Assembly (NCBI GenBank): GCA_964615905.1
Contig: CAZTUB010000004.1
Coordinates: forward strand, 287,527-351,526
DNA length: 64,000 bases
Origin: an uncultured Clostridia bacterium
Lineage (GTDB): Bacteria; Acidobacteriota; Blastocatellia; UBA7656
Reading direction: 5' to 3'
Part shown: positions 11,135-54,388 of the stretch, piece after piece
Position numbering within the stretch: the first letter of the stretch is position 1
Layout: the number at the start of each line of letters is the position of its first letter
Notes under the pieces: model-generated
What the model saw: only the letters and a program-made list of their open reading frames with translations
Databases searched by the model: none
What the model was told of the DNA's origin: nothing
Position numbers and translations under genes: made by a program

Positions 11135-14100
11135 ATGGAAGAGCCTCGGCCTGCGTCTACGAACGCGCGAGAAATGTCAGACGAAGAAAAGACCGCCTCG
11201 AACCAGCAGGTATTTCAGGCGCTGGCCCGGATAGCTCAAGGCGACCTCAACTTTCGCATCAACGGCAGCGAAGACAACGCCACTCCCGAAGGGCGCGAGC
11301 TGCTGTTGAACCTCGACGGCCTCGCGCGCCGCCTTCGCTATATCGTGGGGCGGCTCCAGCGGGCGGCCGATTCGATAGACGCGGTCGTCGGAGAAGTGCT
11401 TCGCGGGACGCAGGCGCTGTCGGCAGGCGTGTTGGACGAAGCAAAGTCTGTCGAGGAGACTTCAAGCTCGATTGCCGAGATCAACGCTTCTATGCACTCG
11501 GTCGGCGGCAGCCTCCAAACCCTTTCCCACCTGACGCAATCGACCTCCACTTCGATCATGGAGATGGCCACCTCGATCAATCAGGTTTCGGAGAACGCGG
11601 ACGAGCTGGCACAGTTTGTCGAAGAGACGGCTTCGGCCATCGAACAGATGGCTGTGAGCGTTCGCAAGGTCGCCGAATCTACGGAAGCGCTCGCGGAATC
11701 CGCTGAAAAGACCGCTCGCGCTATGGAAGCCATAGACGATTCGACTCGCAGCATAGGCGAATCTGTCAATGAGACCACTGTGCTTGCCGAAGAGGTCGCG
11801 CGGTCCGCTGACGCGGGCAGCCAGCTTGTATCCGACACCGCCGCGAGCATGTCTAAGATCAAGGAGGCGATTGACGCGGCGACAGAGACTATCACGCGGC
11901 TCGGCCGCCGCTCGGACCAGATAGGCGAAGTCACACACGTTATCAACGAGATTGCCGACCGCACACACCTGCTCGCGCTCAACGCCGCCATACTCGCCGC
12001 GCAGGCAGGCACGCAGGGGCGCGGGTTTCGAATAGTCGCAGACGAGATCAAAGAACTGAGCGAGCGCACGGCCGCTTCGACCCGCGAGATCGAAGAGATG
12101 ATAAAAGCCGTCCGCGAAGACGTGACAGAGACAATCGAACGCGTGGCGGTCGGCGGCGAGCGCGCGGATGAAGGCGTTGACCTGGCTTCGCGCGCTTCGG
12201 TGCTGCTGACGGAGATACGCGACAAGACAATCGCTTCATCAGACCGCATACGGTTGATCGCAGACTCGACGGCCATCCAGGCGGCGGAAAGTCATACGGT
12301 GCTTGAAGCAGCGGACCTCGTGCGCCAGCAGGCGCGCGGCATCGAGCGCGCTACGAGCGAGCAGGCGCTCACGTCGCGCCACATCGGCGAGCGCGCGTTG
12401 CACATGAGCGAGCTGACAGAGCAGGTGCGCCGCGCAACGGGAGAGCAGGCGCAGGTCTCCAAGTACATCGCTCAAGCCATGGAAGAGCTGACCATGATAG
12501 TCGAGCAGATACGCTCCGCGTCCGACGAGCAGTCGGCAGGCGCGGACCAGGTGCTCAGGGCTATCGAGACCATCAAAGAGGTTGTCGGTCGAAATCAGAC
12601 CTCCATATCAGGGATCAACTCCGCGGTCGATCTGCTTGTGCGCGAGGCCGAGTTGTTGAATCGCGAGGTCGAAGCCTTCTCGATGCCCGCGTCGGAGCGC
12701 GGCGGCCATCTGAAATTTGCTCTGCGGACTTCGCAGATGGAGCTTGACCCGGCCGGCGTCAGCTCAATCTCACGAATCGAGCTGATCTCGAACATCTTTG
12801 AAGGGCTTGTGCAGTTTGGCGAGCGCGCAGACATTCGACCGGCGATAGCCGAGCGCTGGGAGATCTCTCCCGACGGGCGCGTCTACACCTTCTACCTGCG
12901 CGATGCCGCTCGGTTTCACAACGGGCGGCGCGTGCGCGCAGACGACGTGAAGTATTCCTTTGAGCGGCAGATGCGCCAGAACGAAGCGGCCGCCGGGTGG
13001 GTCTTCCGCCCGCTTGTCGGCGCAGAGCAGTTCATGACGGGCGAGACCGATAGCGTCGCCGGGATTCAGATTGCGGGAGAGCAGGTGATCAAGCTTGAGC
13101 TTATCCAGCCGGTCGCATTCTTCCTCGCGACGCTGTGCATGGATTACGCCTATATCGTGCCGCGCGAAGAGGTCGAGCGCGCGCCCGTCGATTTCGCCAT
13201 AAGGCCTGTCGGTTCGGGACCGTTTCGAGTGGTCGAGCCGGTCCTGGGGAAGGAAGTGCAGCTTGAGCGGTTTTCAAATTATTGGAACCCTGAGCTTCCT
13301 TACGTCGACAGGCTGACGGTCCAGTTCGGGCTGAGCGCGGACGAGATTTACGACCAGTTCACTCGCGGCGAGCTTACCTATGTGAACGATCTGCCGCTTA
13401 CTTACCTGCCGGAGTTGAAGCGAGAGCCAGGCGAGATACACGTGATCGAGGCCGTGCAGCTTCAGACGCGCATGCTCGTATTCGACTGCGAGCGCGCGCC
13501 GTTATCGGATAAGCGCGTGCGCCAGGCGATCTGTTACGCGATTAATCGGGAGAGGTTTGTGCGCGAAGTTTACGGCGGCATGGCCGAAAAAGCGGTCGGG
13601 CCGATCCCGCCGGGGCTGGTTGGGTACGACCCGGCTGAGCGAGGGTACGAGCACGACCCTGAGCGCGCGCGGGTGTTGCTTGAGGAATCGGGCTACGGCG
13701 GCGGGTTCGATACGGAAGTCTGGTGGGACGACTCTACAAACAACGCCGTCGAATGTTTGAAAGACGACCTGGCGGAGGTCGGCATCCGCGCCGAGTTTCG
13801 CTATGTCTCGCCAGCGGATATGCAGCGCGCGCTCAGGTTAAAGATGGTCCCGATTGCCGGGCGGGATTGGTTCGCAGACTACCCCGACCCCGATAACTTC
13901 ACGTACGTCCAGTTCAACTCTCGCAACAGGGATGTCTTCATCGGGACCTATTCGAATGAAGAGATGGACCGGTTGACGGACGAGGCGCGGTCTGTGATGA
14001 ACCGCGAGCAGCGCGCAGCGATTTATCGCGAGGTGACGAGGCTGTTGCTTGAAGACGCGCCGTGTGCTTTTCTTGCTCACCGCCGGAGCTTTGTCGCGCA

Positions 14101-14194
14101 CAGGGCGGACATAGAGGGCGTGACGCTTCACCTGCTCTCACCGTTCGTCACGCCTAAAGACCTGTGGTTTGCAAAGAGCGGTAATGAGTCGTGA
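11135..14194 (+). CDS. Soluble chemoreceptor-like protein: HAMP-like + MCP signalling domain fused to C-terminal family-5 solute-binding protein domain
   Basis: The highly conserved MCP signalling-domain core is present (THLLALNAAILAAQAGTQGRGFRIVADEIKELSERT). From about residue 530 there is a typical SBP_bac_5 start (ISNIFEGLVQFGERADIRPAIAERWEISPDGRVYTFYLRDAARFHNGRRVRADDVKYSFE). No signal peptide or TM helix is detectable. Confidence 0.75.
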   Translation: MEEPRPASTNAREMSDEEKTASNQQVFQALARIAQGDLNFRINGSEDNATPEGRELLLNLDGLARRLRYIVGRLQRAADSIDAVVGEVLRGTQALSAGVLDEAKSVEETSSSIAEINASMHSVGGSLQTLSHLTQSTSTSIMEMATSINQVSENADELAQFVEETASAIEQMAVSVRKVAESTEALAESAEKTARAMEAIDDSTRSIGESVNETTVLAEEVARSADAGSQLVSDTAASMSKIKEAIDAATETITRLGRRSDQIGEVTHVINEIADRTHLLALNAAILAAQAGTQGRGFRIVADEIKELSERTAASTREIEEMIKAVREDVTETIERVAVGGERADEGVDLASRASVLLTEIRDKTIASSDRIRLIADSTAIQAAESHTVLEAADLVRQQARGIERATSEQALTSRHIGERALHMSELTEQVRRATGEQAQVSKYIAQAMEELTMIVEQIRSASDEQSAGADQVLRAIETIKEVVGRNQTSISGINSAVDLLVREAELLNREVEAFSMPASERGGHLKFALRTSQMELDPAGVSSISRIELISNIFEGLVQFGERADIRPAIAERWEISPDGRVYTFYLRDAARFHNGRRVRADDVKYSFERQMRQNEAAAGWVFRPLVGAEQFMTGETDSVAGIQIAGEQVIKLELIQPVAFFLATLCMDYAYIVPREEVERAPVDFAIRPVGSGPFRVVEPVLGKEVQLERFSNYWNPELPYVDRLTVQFGLSADEIYDQFTRGELTYVNDLPLTYLPELKREPGEIHVIEAVQLQTRMLVFDCERAPLSDKRVRQAICYAINRERFVREVYGGMAEKAVGPIPPGLVGYDPAERGYEHDPERARVLLEESGYGGGFDTEVWWDDSTNNAVECLKDDLAEVGIRAEFRYVSPADMQRALRLKMVPIAGRDWFADYPDPDNFTYVQFNSRNRDVFIGTYSNEEMDRLTDEARSVMNREQRAAIYREVTRLLLEDAPCAFLAHRRSFVAHRADIEGVTLHLLSPFVTPKDLWFAKSGNES

Positions 14195-45031: not shown

Positions 45032-45068
45032 TTTCGCTGTCGGCTCTCGCTCGACGGCTTCAACTGCA

Positions 45069-45108
45069 AAGCCCCCGCCATCGCAACCCGGTGGCGGGGG
45101 CTTTCTAT
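45069..45108 (+). terminator. Rho-independent terminator
   Basis: aaagcccccgcc-atcgcaacccggt-ggcgggggcttt is a 9-bp GC stem followed by a T tract. Confidence 0.6.
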
Positions 45109-45186: not shown

Positions 45187-48100
45187 ATGACGAGCAGGCA
45201 CGGCACAGGCGGGCAGAAATTCAGGTTGCGGCCTACAGACATCGCCGCCTGGTTCCGGCACAGTTGCGACCGCAATTTTCGATGGAACACAGTGCCGGGC
45301 GAGCAGCGCGACCGGCCCGGCATCGGCTGGGGAGTGCCGCGCCGTATTAGAAAGAGCACGCGCCCAGGCGTTGTGCTGCTCATGAGCGCAGGGTATAACT
45401 TTGAAGCAGACAGCATCGAGGAGTTGATCGAGCTGCACGGCGAAGAGAAAGTCCTGCACGCGGGTTTTGGCTCGAACGCCAATAACCGCACCGTTAACGA
45501 CCTGCCCTTTAACCGATTCATCGATTCGTTAAGCCGACAGCCCTACCCGCTCTTTATCGCGCAGCTTGAGATCAAGCTTGAAGGCGAGCGGGAAGAGAGG
45601 TTTCTCCGCAGCTTCAATCTCGATCCGAGCCGCGTTGCGGTCAGTCCGGGGCGACCGGACTTGCTTGAGCTATTGCCGCCACAATCCGAGGGCGATCCTC
45701 ACAAGCTCCGCATCTGGGATTACAAAGCGTCGTCAGCCGCCCGTCATGAGCATTTCATACAGGTGGCCTACTACTCTTACCTGCTCGATTTCGCCTTGCG
45801 CGAAGAGGGGATAACCGACCCGGTCGTGGACCTCGATTACGCCGTCATCCGCTCGCGCGAGCCGGAGAAAGACCCGTTTGAGCTTGCACCATACAGGCTC
45901 GCCGTACGGGAGTTTATAGAGTCGCGCGTCCCCGAATTATTCGACGCGGCGGCGTCAGACACGCACTTTCACGTTGCGCCCGGTTGCATGATGTGCGAAT
46001 ACGCGGACCACTGCCGCGCCGAAGCCGACGCCGGGTTCGATCTTTCGCGCATAGCCTATCTGACTTCAGAGTCGCGCAGGCAGCTGCGCCGGGCTGGCGT
46101 AAAGACTCACCGCGACCTTGCGCGGGTCGGTGACGCCGCGCTGCTCGCCTCGATTCGAACGGCCGGTTACGACTTGACGGTGAACCTTGATCGTTACGTG
46201 GCGACCGCACAGGCACTCGAAGACGGGCAGCCGAGGCCGCTCGGCTCGCTGACCCTCCTCATGCCGCGTTACGAAGACATCCGCGTGATTATCACTGTCG
46301 AGCACGACCCGGTGACGAATACCTGTTTCGCGATAGGGCTGAAGACATTCGAGGGCTGGGATGCGGCCAATCGGCGCGTCATCGGTTCAGAGCGCGTCTT
46401 TATCGCAAAGGAGAAGGGTGCGGAGGCAAAGCTCCTGTTCGACTTTTTGCAGACGCTCAACGGGCTTCTTGAGCGAGTCGATGCGACGAACGGCGCTGTG
46501 CGAAATAGCTTCTCGCTTGAAACCGAACCGAATGTAAAGGCCGCCCAAGACAGGGCCGACGCGGCGCAGACGGCGCTCGATGCCTTCAAAGCCAGGTATC
46601 AGCCGCTACGAAAGACCAGTCCCGATTATGATAGCTTGGTAAACCGGCGTGACGCTTTAACCGCGTCGGTCAAGCAAGCCAAAAGATCGCTTGCCGAAGC
46701 TCGCAGCGAAGCCGTCAGAGTGATGCAGCGGAGCATGAAACGGCTGCACTTTTACCTTTACGACCAGATCGACTTGAAGAACCTTGAAGGGCTGATCGAG
46801 CGCAACCTGTTCAGCGACGACCCGCCGGGGCTGCTTGAGGAGATAACGCGTCTGGTTCGCATATTTCCGACCGAGTCGATCATCCCGGACGCGAATACAT
46901 TTCGGTCTGTGCCCGGAACGGTGGTCACGCAGGTTTTGCGCGCGCTGGTCGCCTTGCCGACTCCATACCAGTTCGATCTGAAATCGGTCTCCGAAGCCTT
47001 CCAGCCTTACAAAGAGACTGGCGAAGAGACGGGCTTCGTCTTTCGATACAAATACGGCTTTGCCTGGGATTCGTCGAACCAGCTTGCGTTTGAGCGCATA
47101 CACGATGTCTGGGATGGCAAGCGATACTCTGTCGAAGGACAGTTCGATCTCTCTTCAAACGAGATTGCCGAGCAGATGGAAAAGACGGCGCTCGCGAAAC
47201 TGCGCGCGACCGATTCGGTTGTGCGCAGGCTCAAGCAGGACTACAAGGACGGCCTGCGGCTTAGAAAAGAGCCCTTCAGGTTCTATAGCGATTTCAACCC
47301 GCTCAACTTTCAGATGCTCGAAGCGCTGCGCGTCTTTGCCGTGATGGAGAACTCGCTCGACGAACTGGCAATCAAGCACGTCCACACGCTCCCTGTCGAA
47401 GACCGGAACAACAAGTTTGTTTGCATTCGCGGGCTGCGTTACCTGGGAGGGCGCGACCCCGGTGACAACTCGCTATGGTTCAGCTTCGATGCGTCGTCGC
47501 GCGACGCCAAGATCGAAGCCGGCGATTATAATCTGGTGGTAACGAATGAGGACGAGCCGGATGCACTGATGGGCAAGATAGACGGAAAACTCTTTGACCA
47601 GACAACGAGCTGGTGGCTGGGTTATTACAAAGTCAGGGTCGAGGAGTTTGATCTTAGCGCCGAGCCTCCGCGCGTCAGGCTCTTGCCCGACAAACCGGAT
47701 AAGTTTCGGGAGGCAGTTGATTTGAGCCGCCCGTGCGTCCTCGATCAAGTATATTCAGACTACAACACGCCGAAGGTACTCGACGTGCTCGCTCGATTGC
47801 GCAACGACCCGGCGCAGGCGCGGCACGTCCACGACCTGTTGCGCGACGGGACGGTTGAAGGGTGGCAGCCGGTTGTGACCGAGACTCAATCCGTCGAACA
47901 GAGGCTCCGTCAGATAGTGAGCGATAAGGGAAATGATGCCGACAGGTTTCTCAATACCGGTCAGTGGAGAGCTTTTCACGGAGTCTTCAACCAGCCGCTC
48001 ACGCTCGTCTGGGGGCCGCCCGGAACCGGCAAGACGCATACTCTCGCGCACATCCTGCTTGGTTACGCCATTGCCGCGCAGACGACGGGGCGCAAGACCA

Positions 48101-49389
48101 GGCTGCTTGTGACCGCTTTCACGCACCACGCGATTGTCAACGTGATGAAGAAAGTCGCAGAGCTTGCGGACGAGTATGATCTTGATGAGCAGATCATTCT
48201 GCTTCGCCAGCTTCAAGGCAGCGGCAGCTCTGCCCACGACGAGTTGCCCGAACGTGTCGCCCTTGCTGCCGATAAATCGCTTGCGTCGCTTATAACGGGT
48301 GACAGCCGGTGCGTTGTTGTCGGCTCGACGGTCTGGAGCGTTTATAAAGCTATGCGGGAGGCGGGCGGGCCTGTGCAACAGTGGTTCGATGTGGTGTTGA
48401 TCGATGAAGCCTCGCAGATGAAATTGCCCGACGCATTGATCGCGTTCAGCGCAAGCCGGGCCAGCTCAAATATCATACTTGCCGGAGACGACCAGCAGCT
48501 CCCGCCGATCATACACGGCGTCTACCCTGAAGAACACGAGCACATGCTCTCGTCCGTCTTTGCCTTTGTCCGCAACCAGACCGAGCGAGCGCGAGAAACC
48601 GACCCACGGGCCGAACAGAAGCGGCTTTTTCAACTCGAAGACAACTTCCGAATGAACGAGCCTCTGACCGCCTACCCGCGCGAGGCTCTCTATCGCGGCC
48701 GGTTCAACTCGATCAAGCCGGACAGCCGCATACTGACCGCCCCTGCCATAAGCGAAGAGAGCCGAGACGCGCTCGACTCTCTTCTGCTCCCGTCGCGCCC
48801 TGTCGTGCTCTGTTCGTACTCGGCCCCGCGCAGCTATACGGCGCGCAACCCTGTCGAAGCAGAGCTGATCGCGCTTATGACCGAGCGGCTCAGCCGTATC
48901 ATGCTCGACGAGGTGAATGGCGAAAGCGCGGTTCACCGTCCGCATGATTTTGCGCGCAAGGGGGTCGCGGTCCTTTCTCCGCACCGCGCTCAAAACAGCG
49001 CGATTCGACAGGCTCTGCGCGACTACGGGTTCGGCACGGATGATAAGCCTATGCCGCTTGTCGATACGGTCGACAAGTTACAGGGCAAGGAGCGCGCGGT
49101 CATCTTTGTATCATACGGCGTGGCCGACGCAGAGTACGCTACCGCCGAGGCGGAGTTCCTGCTCAGCAGCAACCGTTTCAACGTCGCCGTCACGCGGGCG
49201 CAGAAAAAAGTCGTTGTCTTCTGCTCCGAGCAGGTATTGAACGTCGTGCCGTCGGACCGGCGGACCCTGCTCGACTCGATGATGCTCAAAGAGTTCCGGC
49301 GCTACTGTAGCGACGGTCGCGTGCGCCTGCCCTGGCTCAGTCAGGAAGCGGGCGAGGTGGAATTAAATATCCAGTGGAAAGCGTTTTAA
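45187..49389 (+). CDS. Dna2/Nhi-like nuclease-helicase: N-terminal Cas4/RecB-type PD-(D/E)xK nuclease with Fe-S cysteines, RNaseH-like region, long helical linker, C-terminal Upf1-like SF1B helicase
   Basis: The nuclease carries GRPDLL, IWDYK and QVAYYSY motifs plus Cys at about residue 27 and the cluster CMMCEYADHC. Helicase motifs are I GPPGTGKT, II LIDEASQ, III GDDQQLPP, V TVDKLQGKERAVIF and VI NVAVTRAQKKVVVF. A GGAGAA Shine-Dalgarno sequence lies before the ATG. Confidence 0.8.
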   Translation: MTSRHGTGGQKFRLRPTDIAAWFRHSCDRNFRWNTVPGEQRDRPGIGWGVPRRIRKSTRPGVVLLMSAGYNFEADSIEELIELHGEEKVLHAGFGSNANNRTVNDLPFNRFIDSLSRQPYPLFIAQLEIKLEGEREERFLRSFNLDPSRVAVSPGRPDLLELLPPQSEGDPHKLRIWDYKASSAARHEHFIQVAYYSYLLDFALREEGITDPVVDLDYAVIRSREPEKDPFELAPYRLAVREFIESRVPELFDAAASDTHFHVAPGCMMCEYADHCRAEADAGFDLSRIAYLTSESRRQLRRAGVKTHRDLARVGDAALLASIRTAGYDLTVNLDRYVATAQALEDGQPRPLGSLTLLMPRYEDIRVIITVEHDPVTNTCFAIGLKTFEGWDAANRRVIGSERVFIAKEKGAEAKLLFDFLQTLNGLLERVDATNGAVRNSFSLETEPNVKAAQDRADAAQTALDAFKARYQPLRKTSPDYDSLVNRRDALTASVKQAKRSLAEARSEAVRVMQRSMKRLHFYLYDQIDLKNLEGLIERNLFSDDPPGLLEEITRLVRIFPTESIIPDANTFRSVPGTVVTQVLRALVALPTPYQFDLKSVSEAFQPYKETGEETGFVFRYKYGFAWDSSNQLAFERIHDVWDGKRYSVEGQFDLSSNEIAEQMEKTALAKLRATDSVVRRLKQDYKDGLRLRKEPFRFYSDFNPLNFQMLEALRVFAVMENSLDELAIKHVHTLPVEDRNNKFVCIRGLRYLGGRDPGDNSLWFSFDASSRDAKIEAGDYNLVVTNEDEPDALMGKIDGKLFDQTTSWWLGYYKVRVEEFDLSAEPPRVRLLPDKPDKFREAVDLSRPCVLDQVYSDYNTPKVLDVLARLRNDPAQARHVHDLLRDGTVEGWQPVVTETQSVEQRLRQIVSDKGNDADRFLNTGQWRAFHGVFNQPLTLVWGPPGTGKTHTLAHILLGYAIAAQTTGRKTRLLVTAFTHHAIVNVMKKVAELADEYDLDEQIILLRQLQGSGSSAHDELPERVALAADKSLASLITGDSRCVVVGSTVWSVYKAMREAGGPVQQWFDVVLIDEASQMKLPDALIAFSASRASSNIILAGDDQQLPPIIHGVYPEEHEHMLSSVFAFVRNQTERARETDPRAEQKRLFQLEDNFRMNEPLTAYPREALYRGRFNSIKPDSRILTAPAISEESRDALDSLLLPSRPVVLCSYSAPRSYTARNPVEAELIALMTERLSRIMLDEVNGESAVHRPHDFARKGVAVLSPHRAQNSAIRQALRDYGFGTDDKPMPLVDTVDKLQGKERAVIFVSYGVADAEYATAEAEFLLSSNRFNVAVTRAQKKVVVFCSEQVLNVVPSDRRTLLDSMMLKEFRRYCSDGRVRLPWLSQEAGEVELNIQWKAF

Positions 49390-49390
49390 T

Positions 49391-49819
49391 ATGGCCGGAG
49401 AAAATGTTTTTGGCTACGTGGTAGAAGGCGCAGCGTATAAGCCGCGACCTGCGGCGTACGCGCTGATTAGAGGCGCAGAGCGACAAGTCGCAGTTATAAA
49501 GACACGGCGCGGCTACTTTCTGCCGGGCGGCGGCTCTGACGACGGCGAGAGCCCCGAACAGACCGTCAGCCGCGAGGTGCGAGAAGAGCTTGGCCGGGAA
49601 GTGCGCATAATCCGAAAGGCTGATGAGGCGATACAGTATTTCTCTGACGACGAGAAATATTACCGTTTGGAGGCGACATTCTTTGAGGCCGAATTTGAAG
49701 GCGAAGCTACAGGCGCGGCCGAGTATCAGCTTATCTGGGCCGGGCCAGCCACGGCGGAAGAAGAGTTTTTTCACCAGTGCCACTGGTGGGCGATCAGTCG
49801 ATTTGTTACTCGCTCATAG
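49391..49819 (+). CDS. NUDIX hydrolase
   Basis: Nudix box GGGSDDGESPEQTVSREVREELG. The start is 2 nt after the upstream stop (TAATATG). Confidence 0.8.
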   Translation: MAGENVFGYVVEGAAYKPRPAAYALIRGAERQVAVIKTRRGYFLPGGGSDDGESPEQTVSREVREELGREVRIIRKADEAIQYFSDDEKYYRLEATFFEAEFEGEATGAAEYQLIWAGPATAEEEFFHQCHWWAISRFVTRS

Positions 49820-50095
49820 ATCAACCCGGAAACCACATCTACGGTCTCTGCTCAGGCTGGATAAGAATTACGGTTGTGGTAGAATCAACGACGGTTCGGC
49901 GCACAGCCGAGGACGCTTGCGAGTTATAGAATAGAGGGCAGCGCCGTCCTTGACGAGAAGAGGGTAGCATTCGGACATTGCCACATAATTTTTACCAGCA
50001 ATCTTTTCTGTTAGACCTTTTGCGATTCTTCACCGGACGCCAGTCGCTGTTGAATATCTTCTTGCCACCTATCCCGACAGACCGCGTGAAAGCTT

Positions 50096-54388
<4,293 letters not shown>

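What the first reader, a model, noticed from the sequence alone, without database searches (positions are those of the whole stretch)
45187..49819. Two-gene module: 1400-aa Dna2/Nhi-like nuclease-helicase translationally coupled to a NUDIX hydrolase
One polypeptide combines three parts. (i) A Cas4/RecB-type PD-(D/E)xK nuclease with a 4-Cys Fe-S signature: a Cys near residue 27, then the cluster CMMCEYADHC after the QxxxY motif. (ii) A region with an acidic VEHD motif that I infer to be an RNaseH-like 3'-5' exonuclease fold. (iii) A complete Upf1/Dna2-type SF1B helicase core, carrying motifs I, II, III (GDDQQLPP), V and VI. About 450 aa of uncharacterised helical sequence lies between the parts. 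The architecture resembles eukaryotic Dna2 and the Staphylococcus anti-phage protein Nhi (nuclease-helicase immunity). Here it is followed 2 nt later by a NUDIX hydrolase, and the whole module is bracketed by a strong terminator upstream and by large signalling genes downstream (a double hybrid histidine kinase and an ankyrin Ser/Thr kinase). I am not aware that a nuclease-helicase plus NUDIX pairing has been described as a named defence or repair system. It could be a new anti-phage or nucleic-acid-surveillance module, or a specialised end-resection and repair machine whose NUDIX partner controls it through a nucleotide or cap substrate.
Basis: partly seen in the sequence, partly recalled or inferred. 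Interest (0 to 1): 0.8.

Follow-up and report, generated by a model that had tools for sequence, protein, structure and literature searches.

The report
Bad-family DNA2-like nuclease-helicase, incidental NUDIX neighbour
The 1400-aa protein is a real, intact member of the already described bacterial DNA2-like ("Bad") nuclease-helicase family, which usually travels with a DNA methyltransferase in defence islands, and the NUDIX gene behind it is a neighbour found only in this narrow lineage, not a conserved partner.

Summary
A 142-aa NUDIX ORF with an intact Nudix box starts 1 nt after its stop.

The interpretation does not hold. The large protein is a full-length homologue of Bad, the bacterial DNA2-like helicase-nuclease of Geobacillus (hhalign probability 100%, E 3e-170, 1223 columns). 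It is not Nhi-like.

In about 33 family loci with a readable 3' flank, the gene immediately downstream is:
- an orthologous D12 N6-adenine methyltransferase in 12;
- an unknown 566-aa protein in 6;
- a WYL/Cas3 cassette in 5;
- NUDIX only in the window.

Searching by NUDIX homologues added a same-species contig and one sister lineage with the pairing. In a second, syntenic sister lineage the NUDIX gene is reduced to a 3' stump, yet the large gene stays intact under the same purifying selection (dN/dS about 0.12).

Methyltransferase-linked members occur in every subclade, so the window copy is a methyltransferase-less orphan. A split form of the protein lies next to DpdJ in Dpd clusters.

Verdict: a new member of a known family whose biological role is still unproven. 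The NUDIX module is not supported. Interest is low to moderate.

The parts
45068..45103 (+). Intrinsic-terminator-like hairpin ending the upstream gene (16-bp GC-rich stem, then UUUCU)
   Evidence: RNA fold -32.1 kcal/mol, z = -6.42, 0 of 200 shuffles fold as well. Sequence read. The consensus scanner missed it.
45187..49389 (+). Bad-family (bacterial DNA2-like) nuclease-helicase gene, 1400 aa, with a GGAG-type ribosome-binding site about 8 nt upstream
   Evidence: ORF. More than 110 full-length homologues. hhalign against a Bad-like profile gives probability 100%, E 3e-170, over residues 9-1400. dN/dS is 0.12.
45214..46041 (+). Iron-staple Cas4/RecB/Dna2-type PD-(D/E)xK nuclease domain (about residues 10-285). 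Key residues: C27, D158, D178, K180, Q192, Y196, C267, C270, C276.
46042..46221 (+). Helical linker with a helix-hairpin-helix-like stretch (residues 286-345). This assignment is tentative.
   Evidence: Only a weak TfoX_C hit, E 0.0099 and below the cut-off. The AF2 model shows helices at 294-346. The region lies inside the TIGR03491 TM0106-type match at 155-424.
46255..47256 (+). DnaQ/DEDD-like (RNase H fold) exonuclease-like domain, about residues 357-690. Conserved residues: E372, D374, H521, D526, D529, E636, H639, D640. Catalytic competence is unproven.
46423..46734 (+). Long helical (coiled-coil) insertion within the exonuclease-like domain, residues 413-516. It is largely absent from Firmicute Bad.
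   Evidence: AF2 helices at 413-441, 448-471 and 481-516. The hhalign alignment has a gap opposite about residues 437-512. BLASTP shows a break between residues 436 and 576.
47419..47751 (+). Beta-rich subdomain of the Bad central region (residues 745-855). The fold is not assigned.
   Evidence: Strands at 747-854 in both AF2 models, pLDDT 64-89. The region aligns with the Bad orthologue's central domain.
47935..49308 (+). SF1B Upf1/Dna2-type helicase core, residues 917-1374, motifs I-VI intact
   Evidence: Pfam AAA_11/AAA_12 at E about 1e-22. PDB sequence hits to DNA2, IGHMBP2, Upf1 and Sen1. PADLOC DpdJ positions 42-480 of 2112, E 9e-71.
49391..49819 (+). 142-aa MutT-like NUDIX hydrolase gene. 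It is probably co-transcribed and is a lineage-specific neighbour.
   Evidence: PF00293 at E 8e-12. Nudix box at 49529-49594. Adjacent to a family member only in the window, L099 and L100. A 3' stump remains in L060. dN/dS is 0.12 against L100.
49858..49885 (+). Sigma-70-like promoter (TGGATA-16-TAGAAT with an extended TG) upstream of the histidine-kinase gene. It marks the downstream limit of the two-gene unit.
   Evidence: Promoter scan, a single hit at the number expected by chance. The block is conserved between the window and L060.

Best explanation
The large gene encodes a member of the Bad (bacterial DNA2-like) helicase-nuclease family. It has four parts: an N-terminal iron-sulphur 'iron staple' Cas4/RecB-type nuclease; a DnaQ/DEDD-like exonuclease-fold domain carrying a coiled-coil insertion; the Bad-specific central region; and a C-terminal SF1B helicase.

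Mechanism, by homology with purified Geobacillus Bad (shown there, inferred here): the enzyme loads at junctions between single- and double-stranded DNA, translocates and unwinds 5'-to-3' using ATP, and cuts the single strand it produces with the iron-sulphur nuclease.

The family behaves as the effector of modification-linked immunity (inferred from comparative genomics):
- In this clade the ancestral operon is nuclease-helicase plus a D12 N6-adenine methyltransferase, often inside defence islands.
- A split version (a roughly 772-aa nuclease module plus DpdJ) sits in Dpd 7-deazaguanine clusters.

The window copy has lost the methyltransferase in cis. It has been vertically inherited at an ordinary chromosomal site and is kept under purifying selection, so it has a function that needs neither a cis methyltransferase nor NUDIX.

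The NUDIX gene is a small MutT-like hydrolase that is probably co-transcribed only because of where it lies. It is a lineage-specific neighbour, not a component of a conserved two-gene system.
For: Family membership:
- BLASTP against P0277 aligns residues 16-436 with 6-407 (E 6e-27) and 576-1357 with 473-1206 (E 3e-73).
- P0277 is a 1245-aa Anoxybacillus protein. It has D150 and K815 at exactly the positions mutated in published Bad (PMC7430649).
- Profile-profile comparison gives probability 100%, E 3e-170, over 1223 columns.

Domains.

Bad biochemistry and its methyltransferase neighbour in Geobacilli: PMC7430649.

Partner tally:
- D12 methyltransferase immediately downstream in 12 of about 33 loci. 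These methyltransferases are orthologous at 51-85% identity.
- The methyltransferase matches PADLOC PD-Lambda-5_B at E 1.5e-78.
- Methyltransferase-linked loci occur in every subclade. The window clade is nested between L063 and L061, both methyltransferase-linked.

Defence context:
- Type I CRISPR-Cas plus ZacABC, a complete Type III R-M, Cas3/WYL, GmrSD, McrB-like proteins, integrases and transposases.
- The split form lies next to DpdJ in Dpd clusters on two plasmids.

NUDIX is not a conserved partner.

Selection and inheritance:
- dN/dS is 0.12 in all three domains against L060 (NUDIX lost) and against L100 (NUDIX kept).
- dS is 0.54, matching the flanking genes at 0.50-0.70.
Against: - No experiment links any Bad-family protein to phage defence or restriction. 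I found no follow-up on Bad's biological role.
- The window locus is not a defence island and has no methyltransferase next to it. A housekeeping repair role therefore cannot be excluded for this copy.
- Only 64 kb of the genome is visible, so a cognate methyltransferase in trans cannot be ruled out.
- The NUDIX gene is itself under purifying selection in two lineages. It is separated by 1 nt (window, L099) or 16 nt (L100), so co-expression and some local functional tie are possible.
- The Bad orthologue used for comparison is from Anoxybacillus. It was identified by length and residue numbering, not by the Geobacillus accession itself.
- The first acidic residue of the exonuclease-like domain is Q in most long family members, so that domain may be non-catalytic.
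Confidence: 0.72

Rival explanations
1. One reading: the nuclease-helicase and the NUDIX hydrolase form a dedicated two-gene defence or surveillance module. The NUDIX would control or complement the large enzyme through a nucleotide or cap substrate, perhaps having replaced the methyltransferase as the safety partner in this lineage.
For: - The spacer is 1 nt and no terminator lies between the genes.
- The pairing is kept in the window, L099 and the sister lineage L100.
- NUDIX dN/dS is 0.12 against L100.
- There is a weak PADLOC hit to the single-gene candidate PDC-S07, E 1e-7.
- NUDIX occupies the slot that the methyltransferase holds in relatives.
Against: - No NUDIX lies beside any other family member. 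There is no tblastn match at E <= 1e-4, no canonical Nudix box in about 50 loci, and no PF00293 among the immediately downstream proteins.
- In syntenic L060 the first roughly 280 nt of the NUDIX gene, including the Nudix box, are deleted. The large gene there is nonetheless intact with the same dN/dS.
- NUDIX homologues at 52-58% identity lie in unrelated contexts.
- The spacing is not conserved: 1 nt in the window against 16 nt in L100.
Confidence: 0.08
2. A housekeeping DNA-repair or end-processing enzyme. In this reading it is a bacterial analogue of eukaryotic DNA2 or AddAB, used for 5'-flap or end resection and unrelated to immunity. The methyltransferase linkage seen elsewhere would be incidental.
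For: - The window site is an ordinary chromosomal context, with vertical inheritance and purifying selection like the neighbouring genes.
- Bad in vitro acts on junctions between single- and double-stranded DNA, as DNA2 does (PMC7430649).
- No phage-encoded relatives were found.
Against: - The family is patchy and its context is highly variable, with integrases, transposases and plasmids nearby.
- A co-diverging methyltransferase lies immediately downstream in 12 of about 33 loci.
- Neighbours are repeatedly CRISPR-Cas, Type III R-M, Zac, GmrSD or McrB-like.
- The split form is embedded in Dpd restriction clusters.
- Closely related proteins (70-76% identity) sit in entirely different loci. 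This is not core-gene behaviour.
Confidence: 0.17
3. An inert relic: the restriction subunit of a former R-M-like pair, left without its methyltransferase (which would double as the specificity partner) and simply not yet decayed.
For: Methyltransferase linkage is ancestral in the clade and has been lost here. In Type I and Type III systems the restriction subunit is inactive without the modification subunit (established knowledge).
Against: The 1400-codon ORF is intact in at least three species-level lineages that differ by dS of about 0.54. dN/dS is 0.12 and uniform over the nuclease, central and helicase parts, and all catalytic residues are kept.
Confidence: 0.03

Closest known systems
Bad, bacterial DNA2-like helicase-nuclease (Geobacillus stearothermophilus; Wilkinson et al., NAR 2020, PMC7430649)
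   Same: The architecture is collinear: a four-cysteine iron-staple RecB-type nuclease, a conserved central region, then an SF1B helicase. Homology is full length. A DNA methyltransferase neighbour occurs in many members (PMC7430649).
   Different: - About 25-28% identity.
- 1400 aa against 1245 aa, because of a roughly 75-140-aa coiled-coil insertion.
- E372 here is Q in the Bad orthologue.
- The partner methyltransferase in this clade is D12-class rather than Type III Mod-like, and it is absent from the window.
- No biochemistry has been done on this protein.
Eukaryotic DNA2 (PDB 5EAN/5EAW)
   Different: DNA2 lacks the Bad central domain that separates nuclease and helicase here (PMC7430649). 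That region, about 600 aa long, includes a DEDD-like fold in the model. No sequence match was found outside the helicase.
Cas4 / AddB iron-staple nucleases and the TM0106 RecB-like family (TIGR03491)
   Different: The score of 49.5 bits is below the family cut-off of 97.45. Those proteins are short and have no helicase.
Stand-alone ~772-aa nuclease module plus DpdJ in Dpd (7-deazaguanine) clusters; the 'DNA2-like helicase/nuclease fusion' noted with BRIGADE type I (bioRxiv 10.1101/2025.09.15.676423)
   Same: The N-terminal 900 aa are homologous to the 772-aa protein. The helicase is homologous to the N-terminal SF1 part of DpdJ. The two genes overlap by 4 nt in Dpd clusters.
   Different: Here the two parts are fused, the YprA-type SF2 portion of DpdJ is missing, and the window has no dpdA, dpdB or que genes.
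Nhi (nuclease-helicase immunity, Staphylococcus; bioRxiv 10.1101/776245)
   Same: The concept is the same: one polypeptide with a PD-(D/E)xK nuclease and an SF1 helicase.
   Different: Nhi is 606 aa with an HsdR-like nuclease and a DUF2075/PF09848 helicase. It has no iron-sulphur cysteines and no central domain. PF09848 is below threshold here and no Nhi model appears among the PADLOC matches.
PD-lambda-5 (Vassallo et al. 2022, PMC9519451)
   Same: The D12 methyltransferase partner of family members matches PD-Lambda-5_B end to end, E 1.5e-78.
   Different: The large protein has no match to PD-Lambda-5_A, and the window has no methyltransferase.

Membership tests
Bad (bacterial DNA2-like helicase-nuclease) | RecB-type nuclease motifs plus four cysteines in the iron-staple pattern (one N-terminal, three C-terminal) | tested here: met
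Bad (bacterial DNA2-like helicase-nuclease) | Conserved central domain found only in Bad proteins, lying between nuclease and helicase | tested here: met
   BLASTP aligns residues 576-1357 with 473-1206 of the Bad orthologue P0277. hhalign covers residues 9-1400 with probability 100%.
Bad (bacterial DNA2-like helicase-nuclease) | C-terminal SF1B (Upf1/Dna2-type) helicase with intact motifs | tested here: met
   AAA_11/AAA_12. PDB hits to DNA2, IGHMBP2 and Upf1. The key motif residues are invariant.
Bad (bacterial DNA2-like helicase-nuclease) | Neighbouring DNA methyltransferase gene (reported for Geobacilli) | tested here: not met
   No D12 methyltransferase lies anywhere in the 64-kb window. 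No DNA methyltransferase appeared among the 22 window proteins scanned. The feature is met in 12 of about 33 loci of the same clade. It is an association rather than a strict defining feature.
Bad (bacterial DNA2-like helicase-nuclease) | 5'-to-3' helicase, single-strand endonuclease and iron-sulphur cluster shown biochemically | not testable with these tools
   Requires purified protein. Known only for G. stearothermophilus Bad (PMC7430649).
Eukaryotic DNA2 | Nuclease directly followed by the helicase, as in the DNA2 structures, with no Bad-type central domain | tested here: not met
   About 600 aa with a DEDD-like fold and a coiled coil lie between nuclease and helicase. Bad's central domain is absent from DNA2 according to PMC7430649. 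Only the helicase matches DNA2 by sequence.
Nhi | DUF2075 / PF09848 helicase domain in a protein of about 600 aa | tested here: not met
   PF09848 scores E 0.0074 and 16 bits against a cut-off of 24. No Nhi model appears among the PADLOC matches. The protein is 1400 aa.
TM0106 RecB-like nuclease (TIGR03491) | Score above the curated cut-off over the whole model | tested here: not met
   49.5 bits against a cut-off of 97.45, over residues 155-424. This is a related module, not membership.
Dpd system (DpdJ) | Full-length DpdJ (SF1 plus YprA-type SF2 helicase) within a cluster containing dpdA, dpdB and que genes | tested here: not met
   Only positions 42-480 of the 2112-position DpdJ model match. 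None of the 22 window proteins scanned matched a Dpd or queuosine-pathway family. Compare the true Dpd clusters.
Proposed conserved nuclease-helicase plus NUDIX two-gene system | Co-occurrence of the two genes across diverse genomes | tested here: not met
   NUDIX lies beside the large gene only in the window, L099 (99% identical DNA) and L100. It is decayed in L060 and absent from all other loci.
NUDIX hydrolase superfamily (PF00293) | Nudix box Gx5Ex7REUxEExGU | tested here: met
   GGSDDGESPEQTVSREVREELG is present. PF00293 scores 45.8 bits against a cut-off of 21.1. No NCBIfam equivalog reaches its cut-off, so the substrate is unknown.

The most novel reading that the evidence does not exclude
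In this acidobacterial lineage a Bad-family restriction-type nuclease-helicase lost its cis methyltransferase. It then came under the control of the co-transcribed NUDIX hydrolase, for example through hydrolysis of a nucleotide signal or a DNA/RNA end modification. That would create a modification-independent, nucleotide-gated surveillance module. The sister lineage that lost NUDIX would then have compensated in some other way.
Probability: 0.07. Interest if true: 0.7.

Novelty: new member of a known kind. Interest (0 to 1): 0.3.

Why it matters
The NUDIX-coupled module that motivated the finding is not a conserved system, so it should not be pursued as a new defence system.

Three by-products are of modest value, because Bad is biochemically characterised but biologically unexplained:
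- Its "unknown" central domain is predicted here to begin with a DnaQ/DEDD-like exonuclease fold.
- A large Acidobacteriota/Chloroflexota/Bacteroidota clade carries it in a tight operon with a D12 adenine methyltransferase inside defence islands.
- A split version sits next to DpdJ in Dpd clusters.

Together these support the published but untested idea that Bad-type enzymes are the motor-nuclease of an unusual, unwinding class of modification-dependent restriction systems.

Orphan copies such as this one are kept under selection without a cis methyltransferase. They raise the question of how self is spared.

Tried and rejected
- Genome scan with the full-length alignment. The tool chose generic helicase patterns, so most of the 56 loci were unrelated SF1 helicases. 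Only L001-L005 were useful. L021 and L025 were checked as possible Bad genes and are 748-769-aa helicases, not Bad.
- Viral contig scan with the N-terminal alignment found no relatives.
- I looked for the Bad sequence in the paper's supplement and found no sequence text. I used the Anoxybacillus orthologue P0277 instead. Its genomic context could not be retrieved.
- The second AlphaFold model, of residues 560-930 alone, was poor (pLDDT 48.5) and was not used for fold search. The beta-rich subdomain at 745-855 therefore remains unassigned.
- The consensus terminator scanner missed the upstream hairpin. Folding confirmed it.
- Nhi membership, DpdJ membership and PD-lambda-5 membership were each considered and rejected on tested features.
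- The decaying-relic reading was rejected by dN/dS.
- I searched the window for a methyltransferase in cis. tblastn found no D12 methyltransferase. No DNA methyltransferase family appeared among the 20 other window proteins scanned. The remaining ORFs were not scanned.
Full report
**1. Observation**

They are 45187..49389 (1400 aa) and 49391..49819 (142 aa), both on the + strand. The large gene ends in TAA at 49387-49389. One T follows, then the ATG of the small gene.

- Nuclease: C27, D158, D178-Y-K180, Q192VAYY196, C267MMC270EYADHC276.
- Exonuclease-like region: VE372HD374.
- Helicase: GPPGTGKT, DEASQ, GDDQQLPP, TVDKLQGKE, NVAVTRA.

Domain searches agree:
- Pfam reports PDDEXK_1 (154-277), AAA_11/AAA_12 (922-1348) and, for the small protein, NUDIX.
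- The Nudix box is intact.
- The upstream hairpin is a convincing terminator, at -32.1 kcal/mol with z = -6.4.
- The downstream genes are a double hybrid histidine kinase and a Ser/Thr kinase with ankyrin repeats.

More than 110 full-length homologues of about 1400 aa exist, mostly from Acidobacteriota (Blastocatellia, Pyrinomonadaceae) and Chloroflexota. All the catalytic residues are invariant among 23 of them.

**2. What the large protein is**

By sequence, the helicase core is of the Upf1/Dna2/IGHMBP2/Sen1 type, that is SF1B. NCBIfam's TM0106 RecB-like nuclease model aligns to residues 155-424, below its cut-off.

Whether the domain is catalytic is open. In 93 distant family representatives, positions 374, 526, 529 and 636 stay acidic. 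Position 372 is Q in 31 of 52 helicase-fused members, while it is E in this clade. Helices 413-516 form a long coiled-coil insertion in this domain.

**3. It is a member of a described family**

A literature search led to Bad, the "bacterial DNA2-like" helicase-nuclease of Geobacillus stearothermophilus (PMC7430649). The paper reports the following:
- Bad is 1245 aa, with an iron-staple nuclease (D150) and an SF1B helicase (K815).
- It has a conserved central domain "of completely unknown structure and function".
- It shows 5'-3' helicase, single-strand endonuclease and DNA-looping activity.
- The authors remark that bad always neighbours a Type III-like N6-adenine methyltransferase in Geobacilli. 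[quoted passage not shown]

An exhaustive HMMER search with the N-terminal 900-aa profile found 937 clusters. One of them, P0277, comes from Anoxybacillus flavithermus. It is 1245 aa and is annotated "bifunctional RecB family nuclease/DEAD/DEAH box helicase". It has D at 150 within IIDIK and K at 815 within GKT, exactly the published Bad mutant positions.

The window protein aligns with P0277 over residues 16-436 (E 6e-27) and 576-1357 (E 3e-73). A profile-profile comparison of this clade with 20 Bad-like representatives gives probability 100%, E 3e-170, and 1223 aligned columns spanning residues 9-1400. The only large gap lies opposite the coiled-coil insertion. So this is a Bad-family protein.

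It is not an Nhi-family protein. Nhi is 606 aa with a DUF2075 helicase, and PF09848 is sub-threshold here.

**4. The NUDIX pairing**

I collected family loci three ways: by exact-protein look-ups, by a genome scan and by a metagenome scan with an N-terminal-specific alignment. About 33 loci have a readable 3' flank. The gene immediately downstream on the same strand is:
- a D12-class N6-adenine methyltransferase in 12 loci (orthologous, 51-85% identical to each other, with FxGxG and DPPF/Y motifs);
- an unknown 566-aa protein in 6 loci;
- a WYL-WCX regulator with Cas3 in 5 loci;
- assorted others, including NERD-UvrD, a McrB-like protein, Helicase_C_3, transposases and a sigma-54 activator.

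tblastn with the NUDIX protein finds nothing outside the window. A regex for the canonical Nudix box over all of about 50 loci finds only the window, L099 and L100.

Searching from the NUDIX side gives the same picture:
- Its 97% and 82% homologues lie behind the large gene. L099 is the same species at 99% DNA identity. L100 is a sister lineage at about 86%.
- Homologues at 58% and 52% identity lie in unrelated housekeeping neighbourhoods.

The most telling case is L060. It is 85-86% identical in DNA and fully syntenic across about 20 kb. It keeps only the last roughly 170 nt of the NUDIX gene directly after the large gene's stop. The first roughly 280 nt, including the Nudix box, are deleted.

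Selection analysis shows that the large gene does not depend on NUDIX:
- The large gene in L060 is intact with dN/dS 0.124, uniform over nuclease (0.121), central (0.123) and helicase (0.126) parts.
- This matches the comparison with L100 (0.118) and the flanking chromosomal genes (0.10-0.15).
- dS is 0.54, within the 0.50-0.70 range of the flanks, so the gene has been vertically inherited at this site.

The NUDIX gene itself is under purifying selection where it survives (0.12). It is therefore a functional gene, but the large gene does not need it.

**5. What the family does: evidence and inference**

Methyltransferase-linked loci occur in every subclade of a neighbour-joining tree. The window/L099/L060 group is nested between two methyltransferase-linked lineages, L063 and L061. 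The methyltransferase operon is therefore ancestral and was lost here. The methyltransferase matches PADLOC's PD-Lambda-5_B end to end at E 1.5e-78. PD-lambda-5 is a validated RM-like system (PMC9519451), but the large protein does not match PD-Lambda-5_A.

Family loci are repeatedly embedded among defence or mobile genes:
- type I CRISPR-Cas plus ZacABC (L059);
- a complete Type III R-M (L061);
- Cas3/WYL/Cas6, GmrSD and McrB-like proteins;
- integrases and transposases.

There is also a split version. A stand-alone homologue of the N-terminal module, about 772 aa, is encoded on alphaproteobacterial plasmids. It overlaps by 4 nt a roughly 2100-aa protein that matches PADLOC DpdJ end to end. 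Both lie within bona fide Dpd clusters containing dpdA, two dpdB genes and queC/D/E. The window helicase is homologous to the N-terminal SF1 part of that DpdJ model at E 9e-71. A 2025 preprint also notes "DNA2-like helicase/nuclease fusion" proteins with Dpd-like BRIGADE systems.

Taken together, the family looks like the motor-nuclease effector of modification-linked immunity. This supports Wilkinson et al.'s untested proposal. It remains inference, and I found no experimental follow-up.

**6. The window copy**

It sits in ordinary chromosome. Neighbours include MFS and MacB transporters, a metallo-beta-lactamase, a VCPO-like protein, signalling kinases and glycosyltransferases. No methyltransferase lies in cis.

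It is retained under purifying selection in at least three lineages, so it is not a relic. It must work without a cis methyltransferase. Two routes are possible:
- a methyltransferase elsewhere in the genome, which cannot be tested from 64 kb;
- recognition of DNA structures rather than modification, in immunity or in repair.

I put the family-level defence reading at about 0.55-0.6. The housekeeping-repair reading for this copy is about 0.17, and a genuine functional tie to NUDIX about 0.08.

**7. Verdict**

The fold inference for the middle domain is supported.

The headline interpretation, a novel nuclease-helicase plus NUDIX module, is not supported. The protein is a new, divergent member of the known Bad family. 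Its conserved partner elsewhere is a methyltransferase, and the NUDIX gene is a lineage-specific neighbour.

Interest is 0.3. Residual value lies in the comparative-genomic support for Bad as a restriction-type enzyme, in the predicted DEDD-like fold of its "unknown" central domain, and in the Dpd-linked split form.

Noticed in passing
L105/L106 (NZ_CP017427.1, 19327-28169) and L107 (NZ_CP086112.1, 152557-161210): A stand-alone protein of about 772 aa is homologous to the N-terminal nuclease, exonuclease-like and central module. It overlaps by 4 nt a roughly 2100-aa DpdJ (PADLOC PDLC02895, E = 0). Both lie inside Dpd clusters (dpdA, two dpdB genes, queC/D/E) on alphaproteobacterial plasmids. 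The 772-aa protein has no PADLOC model. In the representative search, 41 of the top 148 hits are stand-alone forms of about 755 aa.
   Followed up: partly
L001:8604-10301, L070:11258-12955, L074:8650-10347, L077:4682-6379, L091:2460-4022, L085:2793-3527: In a Chloroflexota-like subclade (L001 is from an Ardenticatenaceae genome), the slot just after the nuclease-helicase holds a conserved 566-aa protein (83-91% identical among loci). The gap is 4-135 nt. It has no Pfam or PADLOC match and may be an alternative partner to the methyltransferase.
   Followed up: partly
L060:12204-12590 versus window 49391-49819: The syntenic sister lineage retains only the 3' end (about 170 nt, roughly 85% identical) of the NUDIX gene, immediately after the large gene's stop. 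The 5' end (about 280 nt) is cleanly deleted.
   Followed up: yes
L059:1-20206 and L061:1-13200: The nuclease-helicase plus D12 methyltransferase pair is wedged between a type I CRISPR-Cas locus (WYL, Cas6, Cas3, DevT/DevR, Cas5) and ZacABC in L059. In L061 it lies directly after a complete Type III R-M (MTase_III plus REase_III) and an SNF2 helicase.
   Followed up: partly
window 49858-49930 (and L060:12345-12420): A promoter-like TGGATA-16-TAGAAT element with an extended TG sits in a strongly conserved non-coding block upstream of the hybrid histidine-kinase gene. It is more conserved than the surrounding intergenic sequence.
   Followed up: no
window 11135-14194 (+): A 1019-aa ORF combines a methyl-accepting-chemotaxis signalling region (about residues 145-431) with a DppA/OppA-type family-5 solute-binding domain (about residues 520-1011). 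This is an unusual fusion.
   Followed up: no
window 50096-54388 (+): A 1430-aa protein has two complete HisKA-HATPase_c-receiver sets plus GAF and PAS domains (a 'double' hybrid histidine kinase). It is conserved with the following kinase-ankyrin gene in L060 and starts downstream of NUDIX in L100.
   Followed up: no
P0215 (2017 aa) and P0295 (1951 aa): Some family representatives carry the nuclease module internally, starting at about residue 700-760. They therefore have a large extra N-terminal region of unknown nature.
   Followed up: no
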